A stretch of DNA of 64,000 nt from Candidatus Heimdallarchaeota archaeon (GCA_019057815.1 JAHLWR010000007.1:32001-96000), one strand, 5' to 3'. Positions 1-3,000 are shown, counted from the first letter of the stretch. The notes: generated by a model from the letters alone, not told the origin. Program-made: numbers and translations.

Positions 1-3000
1 TACAGTTCGATATTCTGCTAAACTTAAATCTTCAGACATTTCCATATTGAATTTATCTCTAATTTCACCAAAAATCTCTGCTTGTTTGATCGTATCAATG
101 CCTAAATCTTCTTCGAGATCCATTTCCACTTCAATAGAATCAGTATCATAACCTGTTGTTTTAGAAATGATAGTAATTATATCTGTCATAACTTGTTGAT
201 TAGCAACTTGCATTGTAATTGGTTTTGGTTTAATTGCGATAACTTCAGCACTAGAAGGATGGGAAACAGTTTTTAATCTCAACACACGTCCCTCAAGATG
301 AAGCTGAGTCTTGTTTCCACCAAGAGAGCTCAACCAATTATCATATTCTTTAGATATGAATCTATCTTTGTAACTGTTAAGTCTAAACAGAGCAAAGGCT
401 AGTTGAGATCCAAAACCAGCTGCAAACTTTAGTGCATATTTTTTCCTTTCTTCTTCTCCTTTCGAGAATTTAAATTTAGTAAATGCAGGATCTATTTCTT
501 TTAGATTAGCGATAGGGGGTAATTTTCCTTTTTCCATGGATTTGATAGCAATACACTCTTCTAATCCTGCACCCATAGCATGCCCTGTAAACCCTTTTGT
601 GTTGATGATAGTCATATCATATGCATCCTTTCCAAAAACACGTTCTAGAGTTACAATCTCTGCTTCAGCTGAACCTCCTCTTGCTGGAGTGTATGTTTCA
701 TGTGAAACAAACATGCCATTCTTAGCTATTTCTTTTCGTGAAATGTTGTGTACATCCTCCATTTTGACAACAAACTTTTCCATTTCTTTGTAAATTTGAT
801 CAACATCAAGTCTAGATCCGTGAAAAGCATTATTGGAGAAAAATGTACCAAGAAGGTCTACAATTGGTTTAACTCCTCTTTTCACAAACGATTCAGAGCT
901 TTCAATTATTAGACCAGCAGCAGCTGCTCCTATTAATAAACCATGTCTATTTTTCCCAAAAGGTAGAGCTGCTTCTTCAACTTTTGCCTTTGTTGAAACA
1001 CCTCCTGCAGCTAAAAATCCTGCACCTATCCATGGTAGAAGATCTGGACTCGATGCATTATCTCCAGCAATGACAATAACTCTTTTACATCTTCCATTCC
1101 TTATCCAGTCTTCAGCTACTCCAATAGCTTGTGTCGTTGAAGCGCATGCTGAATTTATTTGAGTATTTGGTCCCTTAGCTTTGATCAATTGTGCGAATTG
1201 AGAATGACCCATTGACAATATCTTGTATATAAAATCTCTACTAAACTGTCTTTTATTATCATTGTTAGTTATATATTGAAGATTTTCGTTATACCATTTT
1301 CTTAACTCTTCTTTAATTTGTACATTACTAATTTCACTACTTAATAGATTTAAAACTGTCTCGATTTCTTTTCTATTTTTTTCTTCAAAAACAGAAATAA
1401 AGTGATTAGAAATTTCCTTAATGAGATTGTTATAACCAGGAAAAGCTGAAGCGAAGATGATTCCTGTATCTTCACGTAAATCCTCTGGTAGAGCCCAATC
1501 TCCTTGTATCACTTTACCTGTCGTTGTCATTATTTCTGTTTTTACTAGTGGAATTCCCGCATCTCTTAATGCCTCATAACCAGCACCAATAGCCAGTTGA
1601 AAAGTTGAATCAAGAGCGTTTAGAAGTTTTGGATTGATATTATAATCTTTTTCAAGATCAAAACTACCAAGTTGTCCTGCTAAACTAATAACTTTGGATA
1701 TGTCATCTATATTCTCGAAAGTAGCATTACCATCAGGTGATTTTACCAATCGGATGATGTTCTTATCTAGGATTTTTTGTTTTGTCTGATAATCAACCGC
1801 ATCAATAAGATTTTCTCCTGAAAGTATGCGGTCAATATTCTGATCATCAAAAACTCTATTTGTTTTGCCTGGTATTCCTATCCCAACACCAGTAATACCT
1901 ATTAAACCTGTATTAATTTTAAGAGCCTTATGCTTTTTCAATAAATCTAGAGATTCTCTATATTTTGTATCATATAAATCGAAACTTTGCATGAAGAAGG
2001 ATTTGATTAGGTTTTTGTGCTCTCTTAAATAATCACTGAAATAAGGATTAGAAGAAAGTTCTTTAAATTCAATATCATCTTCCAGAATTCCAAATGCTGA
2101 TATCTGATCCCTTTCAACGCTTATTTCTACTTTGGCTTTCTTCTGTTGATTAACTATCTCGAGTATTTTCTTCACAGTTCTATTTGTTTTTTCAATTTCA
2201 CTTTCTTTTGGTGATAGTAAAGAGAAGAAATGAACATTTGTTTGTTCTTTTAATATATCTTGAGCAAAATTGGCTAACGCTCGTCTAGGTCCAACTTCAA
2301 CAAAAATTCTTCCTCCATCTTCTTGCATGTTTCTAATTTCATCTATCCATTTTACTGAAGAACTGATTTGTTGAAGAAGTAAAGATCTAATTTCTTCGGG
2401 ATTTTCAGAGTGTTTCTTCCCTGTAACATTACAATAAACTGGAATAGAAGGTTTGTTGTAATCTAAAGATGAAAGAAGATTTTCCAACCCTTTCTCAGCT
2501 TCTTTAACAATTTTTGAATGAAAAGCTGTTGAAACGTTTAACTTTTTCGCATTTATCCCTTTTAGTGAGAACAATTCAATAGCTTTGTCTATACCTCTTT
2601 CTTCTCCACTAATTACAGTTTGTGTAGTTGAATTATAGTTAGCAATCGTCACATAAAAATCAGAAATACTATCTACTACTTCTCTCACTTCCTGAGCAGA
2701 TGCAAATATAGCAGCCATTGCGCCTTTTATTCTTTCTGCAGCTGTTCCCATAGCTCTTCCACGTGCTATAACAGCCTTTAAACCATCTTGAAAAGTTATG
2801 ACATCCGCTGCAACAAGAGCAGAATATTCACCAAGACTATGTCCAGCAACTTTCGAAGGCAATATTCCTTTTTCTTTAAGCAATTCAAATAGAGCTATTT
2901 CTACTACAAACAATGCTGGTTGCGTATACTTGGTATCTCTAAGTCTTGCTTCATTTTCATCTTTTGACAGATGTTCAGACCCAAATAGAATTTCTTTTAA

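What the first reader, a model, noticed from the sequence alone, without database searches (positions are those of the whole stretch)
1..200. Carrier domain has Thr instead of the phosphopantetheinylated Ser (LGIDTIKQAE)
Seen: the ACP-like domain reads DLEEDLGIDTIKQAEIF, with ACG at 93-91. Established: PfaA-type ACPs read LGIDSIK and are modified on that Ser. Inference: either Thr-linked phosphopantetheinylation by a specialised PPTase, or a non-carrier ACP-like domain. I recall similar GIDT.KQ motifs in some uncharacterised bacterial megasynthases (not verifiable here), which would imply a conserved feature rather than decay.
Basis: partly seen in the sequence, partly recalled or inferred. 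Interest (0 to 1): 0.75.

Follow-up and report, generated by a model that had tools for sequence, protein, structure and literature searches.

The report
Threonine-site carrier domains, Heimdall archaeon megasynthase
All three carrier domains of a giant fatty-acid-type synthase in a Heimdall-group Asgard archaeon have threonine where studied carrier proteins have the serine that holds the phosphopantetheine arm; the swap is fixed across a large enzyme family and the same protein ends in its own arm-attaching enzyme, so a threonine-linked cofactor, which I could not find described, is likely but unmeasured.

Summary
Observation confirmed. On the minus strand, window 1-200 encodes DLEEDLGIDTIKQAEIF, with Thr2223 as ACG at 93-91. 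The gene runs from window 6759 past the window's first base: 3517 aa in all, ordered ER-KS-AT-KS-ACPx3-KR-DH-PPTase. All three tandem ACPs have Thr.

This is not decay. In 120 homologues, 399 of 426 carrier domains have Thr, 27 have Ser, and none has anything else. On a KS tree the Thr proteins form one clade, with a few Ser exceptions nested inside it. All four Thr codons occur.

Solved ACPs align their Ser onto this Thr, and a model starts helix II exactly at it. In this 95%-complete genome the fused Sfp-type PPTase is the only PPTase. The Thr domains are the only carriers with a conserved acceptor residue. Acetyl-CoA carboxylase genes, a biotin ligase and a hydrolase flank the gene.

Thr co-varies with Val(+1) and Gln(+3).

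Best reading (about 0.7): working carriers primed on Thr by the fused PPTase. No mass measurement exists. I found no paper describing this. E. coli ACP S36T is reported as unmodifiable.

This scan has already flagged the same family at least 8 times on other genomes.

The parts
1..6759 (-). N-terminal 2253 codons of a 3517-aa type I FAS/PKS-like megasynthase. The gene continues to contig position C24:28206, i.e. 3,795 nt before window base 1. That outside part holds ACP2, ACP3, KR, DH and a fused Sfp-type PPTase.
91..93 (-). Codon ACG for Thr2223, at the position of the phosphopantetheine-bearing Ser of canonical ACPs
1..189 (-). Carrier domain ACP1, residues 2191-2253 of 2191-2264 (cut by the window edge)
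   Evidence: Pfam PP-binding; model
379..1908 (-). Second ketosynthase-like domain (KS2). The Cys1872-His2020-His2060 triad is intact, so it is not a Cys-less chain-length factor.
2221..3126 (-). Acyltransferase domain (GHSLGE, Ser1308)
3205..4626 (-). Ketosynthase KS1 (Cys-His-His motifs DAACASS, EAHGTST, SQIGHMK)
4840..5775 (-). NMO / FabK-PfaD-like enoyl reductase domain
5830..6759 (-). N-terminal region with a weaker second NMO/IMPDH-like match
6770..8347 (-). Acyl-CoA carboxylase carboxyltransferase, directly upstream on the same strand (malonyl-CoA supply)
   Evidence: PF01039, 631 bits
8405..9205 (+). Biotin protein ligase (BPL_LplA_LipB), divergently placed

Best explanation
The three Thr-site domains are working acyl carrier domains of a self-contained, iterative, fully reducing fatty-acid-type megasynthase (ER-KS-AT-KS-ACPx3-KR-DH-PPTase) in a Heimdallarchaeota-affiliated archaeon. 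The C-terminal Sfp-type PPTase domain has the Mg ligands D3402, E3404 and E3441, plus K3445 and H3385. It is inferred to transfer 4'-phosphopantetheine from CoA onto the side-chain hydroxyl of Thr2223, Thr2318 and Thr2421. The result would be an O-phosphopantetheinyl-threonine in place of the usual serine ester. Malonyl-CoA comes from the flanking biotin carboxylase, BCCP and carboxyltransferase, with a biotin ligase alongside. The AT loads it onto the carrier thiols. KS1/KS2, KR, DH and ER extend and reduce the chain. The overlapping alpha/beta-hydrolase gene probably releases the product. Shown: the sequence, the domain order, intact catalytic motifs, family-wide fixation of Thr, the only alternative being Ser, the Thr position at the start of helix II, the PPTase fusion, and the lack of any other PPTase or conserved-site carrier in the genome. 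Inferred: that the Thr is actually modified, and what the product is.
For: (1) All three tandem ACPs have Thr. The close relative (92% identity, Heimdallarchaeota MAG) keeps Thr with a synonymous codon difference, ACA versus ACG. (2) 399 of 426 carrier domains in 120 homologues have Thr and 27 have Ser. No other residue occurs, i.e. only hydroxyl residues are tolerated. All four ACN codons occur across 60 Asgard genomes. Ser codons are one base away. (3) On a KS1 tree all Thr proteins form one clade (support 99) against PfaA-like Ser proteins. Ser or mixed proteins (P0008 SSSS, P0074 S-T-S, P0013 TTTTS) are nested at three separate places. P0074 keeps the same fused PPTase residues, so Ser and Thr coexist under one PPTase. 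(4) The motif around Thr is nearly invariant (D-5, L-4, G-3, D-1, K+2, Q+3 at 99.7% or more). No other conserved Ser exists in the domain. (5) The Thr aligns with the Ser of solved ACPs and starts helix II in the model. (6) The fused PPTase is conserved at all Sfp catalytic positions in 36 fused homologues (Sfp ligands per PMC4103896). It is the only PF01648 match in this 95%-complete genome. The only other PP-binding-like ORF has S/D/T/N at the site across its orthologues. (7) KS1, AT, KS2, KR and DH motifs are intact. (8) Three of the five nearest stand-alone PPTases I looked up sit between a homologous synthase and a carboxyltransferase. The one locus with a complete synthase has a Thr-type ACP.
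Against: No mass-spectrometric or biochemical measurement exists for any member. E. coli ACP S36T is reported as not modifiable and non-functional (PMC3340395), so a Thr acceptor is not trivially accepted by PPTases. I found no residue in the fused PPTase that would explain a changed acceptor preference. Desulfobacula toluolica's Thr-type synthase has no PPTase within 8 kb, so a dedicated PPTase is not universal at the locus. The homologue set was gathered with a Thr-type query and so over-represents Thr. Archaea are thought to be able to make fatty acids without ACP (own knowledge: Dibrova et al. 2014).
Confidence: 0.7

Rival explanations
1. The Thr domains are ACP-fold modules that are never phosphopantetheinylated. 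They would act as scaffolds, docking or regulatory repeats. The catalytic domains would act on CoA thioesters or another carrier, and the PPTase domain would serve something else or nothing.
For: E. coli ACP S36T cannot be modified. The PPTase shows no visible adaptation. An ACP-fold ORF with no fixed site residue exists in the same genome, which shows that site-less ACP folds do occur. Archaeal ACP-independent fatty-acid synthesis has been proposed (own knowledge).
Against: Only Thr or Ser ever occupy the site in 426 domains. A non-acceptor would tolerate Ala, Gly or Asn, as the orphan ORF family does. The DLGIDT.KQ motif is nearly invariant. The PPTase is fused, is catalytically intact in 36 homologues, and has no other conserved-site substrate in this genome. 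Tandem carrier repeats of 2-6 copies behave as in PUFA synthases.
Confidence: 0.15
2. The domains are carriers, but the prosthetic group sits on another residue or is a different group. Thr would then only shape the site.
For: T12 (TGY) and T62 of the domain are also conserved hydroxyl residues.
Against: Conserved hydroxyl residues lie in corresponding regions of the ordinary Ser-type ACPs aligned here, where the cofactor sits on the helix-II Ser. There is no conserved Ser, Cys or Lys elsewhere. The PPTase is a standard CoA-using Sfp type.
Confidence: 0.07
3. Decay, sequencing or assembly error, or a pseudogene.
For: None beyond the departure from the textbook motif.
Against: The frame is uninterrupted over 3517 codons. 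Thr occurs three times in this gene and in hundreds of independent assemblies, with synonymous codon variation. All catalytic motifs are intact.
Confidence: 0.01

Closest known systems
'Type R' secondary lipid synthase clusters (Shulse & Allen 2011, PLoS One 6:e20146, PMC3098273; read)
   Same: One pfaA-like gene with the order KS-MAT-KS-like-ACP(3-6)-KR. It is tied to a PPTase and often to acetyl-CoA carboxylase genes. The product is unknown.
   Different: Here the PPTase is fused to the C-terminus instead of being a downstream gene. An ER (NMO) region is fused at the N-terminus and a PKS-type DH follows the KR. The second KS keeps its Cys-His-His triad. The host is an archaeon. The paper never mentions the Thr (0 occurrences of 'threonine' or 'serine'). 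I did not check the five named Type R genomes myself.
Tandem ACP domains of PfaA (PUFA synthases; NCBIfam TIGR02813)
   Same: Tandem repeats of about 80-100 aa with the same fold and the motif (E/D)xDLGID-x-(I/V)K. This is the best NCBIfam hit for the protein.
   Different: PfaA-type domains read LGIDSIKRVEI with Ser (P0024, P0088, P0089). These read LGIDT(V/I)KQ(A/V)EI. The scores of 633 and 303 bits are below the 1010-bit cut-off. No PfaB, PfaC or PfaD genes lie nearby.
Megasynthases with a built-in PPTase: enediyne PKSE (KS-AT-ACP-KR-DH-PPTase) and the fungal FAS alpha subunit (own knowledge, not tested here)
   Same: A C-terminal PPTase domain self-primes the carrier domain of the same polypeptide. 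The order ACP-KR-DH-PPTase is as in PKSE.
   Different: Those carriers use Ser. PKSE has one ACP, one KS and no ER.
E. coli ACP S36T (PMC3340395)
   Same: The same Ser-to-Thr substitution at the attachment site.
   Different: It is an engineered change in a Ser-type ACP served by AcpS, and is reported as unmodifiable and non-functional. Here Thr is the natural, selected state, with Val(+1) and Gln(+3) around it and an Sfp-type PPTase.

Membership tests
Carrier protein domain (Pfam PF00550 PP-binding) | Sequence match over the curated cut-off | tested here: met
   Three matches of 35-43 bits against a 20.8-bit cut-off
Carrier protein domain (Pfam PF00550 PP-binding) | Helical-bundle ACP fold with the acceptor residue at the N-terminus of helix II | tested here: met
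   AF2 model with pLDDT 88. Long helices at residues 2-17, 38-52 and 68-81, plus a short helical turn at 62-64. Helix II starts at residue 38, which is Thr2223.
Carrier protein domain (Pfam PF00550 PP-binding) | Conserved Ser as phosphopantetheine acceptor (D-S-L/I motif) | tested here: not met
   Thr in all three domains and in 399 of 426 homologous domains. Solved ACPs have Ser at the aligned position.
Carrier protein domain (Pfam PF00550 PP-binding) | Covalently bound 4'-phosphopantetheine | not testable with these tools
   Needs mass spectrometry
PfaA, PUFA synthase (TIGR02813) | Whole-protein score over the NCBIfam cut-off | tested here: not met
   633.5 and 303 bits for the two halves against a 1010.1-bit cut-off
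PfaA, PUFA synthase (TIGR02813) | Tandem ACPs with LGIDSIKRVEI | tested here: not met
   Tandem repeats are present, but the motif is LGIDTIKQ(A/V)EI
PfaA, PUFA synthase (TIGR02813) | Partner genes pfaB, pfaC and pfaD in the cluster | tested here: not met
   The neighbours are a carboxyltransferase, a biotin ligase, a hydrolase, BCCP and a biotin carboxylase. ER and the second KS are fused into the one protein. I did not search genome-wide.
'Type R' secondary lipid synthase (Shulse & Allen 2011) | pfaA homologue with KS-MAT-CLF-ACP(3-6)-KR | tested here: inconclusive
   The order KS-AT-KS-ACPx3-KR is present. The KS-like domain keeps Cys-His-His in 118 of 118 homologues. ER, DH and PPTase are extra.
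'Type R' secondary lipid synthase (Shulse & Allen 2011) | PPTase gene downstream of the synthase | tested here: inconclusive
   Here it is a fused C-terminal domain. Split forms with synthase, PPTase and carboxyltransferase in a row exist in relatives.
Sfp-type (group II) PPTase | Two-lobed fold (AASDHPPT_N plus ACPS) with Asp-x-Glu plus Glu Mg ligands and the W-x-x-K-E-x-x-x-K motif | tested here: met
   PF22624 plus PF01648. Motifs PIGIDIEK and WTVKEAVTK at 3398-3405 and 3437-3445. Invariant in 36 fused homologues. Sfp ligands per PMC4103896.

The most novel reading that the evidence does not exclude
O-(4'-phosphopantetheinyl)threonine is a natural protein modification that I could not find described in the papers I could search. 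It would be the norm in a large family of fatty-acid/polyketide-type megasynthases spread over Asgard archaea and several bacterial phyla. In Heimdall-group archaea it would be installed by a PPTase built into the synthase itself. The Thr/Val(+1)/Gln(+3) signature would then mark a carrier-PPTase system distinct from Ser-type carriers, inside a complete ACP-dependent fatty-acid-type synthase in the archaeal lineage nearest to eukaryotes.
Probability: 0.65. Interest if true: 0.85.

Novelty: new variant of a known kind. Interest (0 to 1): 0.75.

Why it matters
Every studied acyl, peptidyl or aryl carrier protein holds its phosphopantetheine arm on a serine. PPTases are defined as Ser-modifying enzymes (e.g. 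PMC4103896), and Ser-to-Thr is used in the laboratory as a dead-carrier control (PMC3340395). A large natural family with Thr fixed at that site therefore challenges a textbook rule.

It also predicts a new post-translational linkage that is directly testable with one recombinant construct and a mass spectrometer. It would affect genome-mining rules, which may score or discard such domains as inactive. It could also yield a carrier/PPTase pair distinct from the Ser-type systems.

Separately, a complete type I fatty-acid-type synthase sits in Heimdall-group Asgard archaea, together with its own malonyl-CoA supply and a neighbouring DegV fatty-acid-binding protein. This bears on the archaeal-bacterial lipid divide and on where eukaryotic fatty-acyl lipids came from.

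Tried and rejected
(1) Search for a PPTase residue signature specific to Thr carriers. I aligned 36 fused PPTase domains against the 111 nearest stand-alone PPTases. No active-site difference emerged. Only K3360 is group-specific, and it lies outside the catalytic motifs. The comparison group may itself serve Thr carriers, so this is inconclusive.

(2) An alternative PPTase substrate in the genome. The 80-aa PP-binding-like ORF on contig C2 scores 21.1 bits against a 20.8-bit cut-off and is a real gene, present in 24 of 30 genomes of the family. Its site residue varies (S/D/T/N), so I rejected it as an obligatory substrate.

(3) A PPTase census in Desulfobacula toluolica. The record is not held. 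Only the 8-kb flanks were read, and they contain no PPTase.

(4) Literature. Seven searches found no report of Thr-linked phosphopantetheine, of the motif, or of Asgard PUFA-synthase-like enzymes. The library lacks most subscription journals. The Beld et al. 2014 review was not held under the id I tried.

(5) Neighbourhoods of two further stand-alone PPTases. P0152's shows no synthase and P0142's has no DNA available.

(6) I did not run complex prediction. An ACP-PPTase pair would pass by likeness to solved complexes and would not separate Thr from Ser.

(7) The residue numbers printed are 4 too high.

Full report
**1. The observation**

The reverse complement of window 1-200 encodes ...EMDLEEDLGIDTIKQAEIFGEIRDKF.... 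The Thr codon is ACG at window 93-91 and the residue is Thr2223. The frame is open from window 6759 down to base 1.

The window is contig C24:32001-96000 of a 3.74-Mb assembly that is 95% complete. Fetching the DNA before the window shows that the gene runs on to C24:28206. The protein is 3517 aa, stored as P0003.

Two more carrier repeats lie just outside the window. Both read LGIDTIKQ, at Thr2318 and Thr2421, and both use ACA.

**2. What the protein is**

Pfam and NCBIfam give this order:
- NMO/FabK-like enoyl reductase
- KS
- AT
- a second KS
- three PP-binding domains
- KR
- a PKS-type DH
- a two-lobed Sfp-type PPTase (AASDHPPT_N plus ACPS)

The catalytic motifs are intact:
- KS1: Cys-His-His.
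- AT: GHSLGE.
- KS2: Cys1872, His2020, His2060. This triad is conserved in 118 homologues, so KS2 is not a Cys-less chain-length factor.
- KR: Tyr.
- DH: His.
- PPTase: H3385, G3400, D3402, E3404, K3440, E3441, K3445.

The PPTase residues match the Sfp Mg ligands Asp107, Glu109 and Glu151 described in PMC4103896.

The gene's neighbours are:
- a carboxyltransferase (window 6770-8347, same strand)
- a biotin ligase (window 8405-9205)
- outside the window, an alpha/beta-hydrolase whose start overlaps the synthase stop (C24:27440-28237)
- a BCCP (C24:26959-27432)
- a biotin carboxylase (C24:25432-26934)

This is a self-sufficient locus running from malonyl-CoA to an acyl chain.

A 92%-identical homologue lies in 'Candidatus Heimdallarchaeota archaeon 8H_bin2'. 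The nearest full-length relatives are from Heimdall-, Loki-, Hod- and Thor-type Asgard archaea.

**3. Is the Thr at the acceptor position?**

Yes.
- Solved ACPs (PigH, Plasmodium ACP, AcpM) align their D-S on this D-T.
- An AlphaFold2 model of ACP1 (pLDDT 88) has the ACP helical fold, and helix II begins exactly at the Thr.

**4. Is it conserved?**

I searched the carrier region against proteins of 1934-6155 aa and listed the best 120 hits. An HMM pulled 426 carrier domains from them. Of these, 399 have Thr, 27 have Ser and none has anything else. With the query included, 114 proteins are all-Thr, 4 are all-Ser and 3 are mixed.

The set was gathered with a Thr-type query, so these proportions are not a census.

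A tree built on KS1, which is independent of the carrier columns, puts all Thr proteins in one clade of 105 rows (support 99). It is rooted on three PfaA-like Ser proteins. Ser or mixed proteins are nested at three separate places:
- P0008 (SSSS)
- P0074 (S-T-S), sister to an all-Thr protein
- P0013 (TTTTS)

This was a FastTree run, and long-branch warnings apply to P0008.

At the DNA level, the motif occurs in 60 of 400 genomes of the phylum and in 26 of 30 genomes of the window's own family. The reversed control pattern has 0 hits, and all four ACN codons occur. The 92% relative differs from this genome by a synonymous change in the first Thr codon. Ser codons are one substitution away, so Thr is maintained by selection.

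**5. A co-varying signature**

In Thr domains, Gln at +3 is present in 398 of 399 and Val at +1 in 352 of 399. The flanking D, L, G, D and K are essentially invariant.

In the nine Ser domains inside the Thr clade, Gln(+3) survives in only three. Fisher's test gives 9e-11, but this is not corrected for kinship and rests on about four lineages.

In the S-T-S proteins P0074 and P0116, the Thr domain keeps DTVKQAEIFG while the Ser domains read DSIK(A/T/I)AEI. So Thr, Val(+1) and Gln(+3) behave as one unit on the same face of helix II.

**6. The PPTase argument**

The fused domain is the only PF01648 match in the genome. The only PP-binding matches are the three Thr domains and one borderline 80-aa ORF on contig C2. 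That ORF is a real gene in 24 of 30 genomes of the family. Its site residue varies (S, D, T, N), so it is not an obligatory acceptor.

Across the class, the PPTase mostly lies inside open frames of 3200-3600 aa, on the same contigs as the Thr motif.

I searched the PPTase domain against 1.84 billion representatives. Twelve hits reach E<=1e-30; these are fused forms or fragments. After that come ordinary stand-alone Sfp-type enzymes at 35-46% identity.

Three of the five nearest stand-alone enzymes that I looked up sit between the KR-DH end of a homologous synthase and a carboxyltransferase. The one complete synthase among them has a single ACP reading DLGIDTVKQAEL.

I found no residue that distinguishes the fused PPTases from these relatives. 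Desulfobacula toluolica's four-Thr synthase has no PPTase within 8 kb, but it does have a PlsC-type acyltransferase next door.

**7. Reading**

The only residues ever found at the site are the two with an aliphatic hydroxyl. The surrounding recognition motif is nearly invariant. All catalytic domains are intact. A conserved PPTase is welded to the protein in a genome with no other consistent substrate.

Together these make a functional Thr acceptor the best explanation, at about 0.7.

The main rival is an unmodified ACP-fold repeat. It draws on the report that E. coli ACP S36T cannot be modified (PMC3340395) and on the lack of a visible PPTase adaptation. It does not explain why only Thr or Ser is tolerated.

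No measurement exists, so the linkage is an inference.

**8. Comparison and novelty**

The nearest described system is the 'Type R' secondary lipid synthase cluster: KS-MAT-CLF-ACP(3-6)-KR plus a PPTase gene, sometimes with ACC genes (PMC3098273). That paper does not mention the Thr. The present gene differs by its fused ER, DH and PPTase, by a Cys-bearing second KS, and by an archaeal host.

It is PfaA-like but scores below the TIGR02813 cut-off and lacks the Ser motif.

Seven literature searches found no description of Thr-linked phosphopantetheine or of this motif.

This scan has already flagged the same family on at least eight other genomes, with the same reading. I re-derived the main points independently. 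I add the Thr/Val(+1)/Gln(+3) co-variation, the orphan-ACP control and the Desulfobacula counter-example to 'always has its own PPTase'.

I rate it a new variant of a known kind, with interest 0.75.

Noticed in passing
window 12128-13009 (+): A DegV-family (fatty-acid-binding, FakB-like) protein is encoded about 5 kb from the megasynthase. This fits a fatty-acyl product and is unusual in an archaeon.
   Followed up: no
G000 contig C2:14844-15083 (+) (L009/L013): An 80-aa ACP-fold ORF sits next to a luciferase-like oxidoreductase gene. It is conserved in 24 of 30 genomes of the window's family only. The residue at the Ser-equivalent position varies (S/D/T/N), so it is a carrier-like protein without a fixed attachment site.
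   Followed up: partly
genomes G064-G077 (sister family f5), e.g. G066:C1:2726233-2726556: 11 of 22 genomes of a sister family lack the Thr-carrier motif but carry a stand-alone PPTase-like ORF of 163-206 aa. Some f7 genomes have both this and the fused form. Its substrate in these archaea is unknown.
   Followed up: no
window 379-1908 (-): The second KS-like domain, called 'CLF' for Type R clusters in the literature, keeps the full Cys-His-His triad here and in 118 homologues. The enzyme therefore has two potentially active ketosynthases.
   Followed up: partly
L025 5366-6262 (Desulfobacula toluolica Tol2, FO203503.1): A PlsC-type acyltransferase (PF01553) and a sigma-54 activator lie directly upstream of the bacterial four-Thr synthase. 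This hints that its product enters glycerolipids.
   Followed up: no
window 10677-11996 (-), 28132-30102 (+), 30380-32002 (-): Three NosD/right-handed beta-helix proteins lie within 22 kb.
   Followed up: no
window 25216-26700 (-), 43360-45525 (-), 49084-51297 (-): Three large ORFs (494, 721 and 737 aa) have no Pfam match at E<=1e-5.
   Followed up: no
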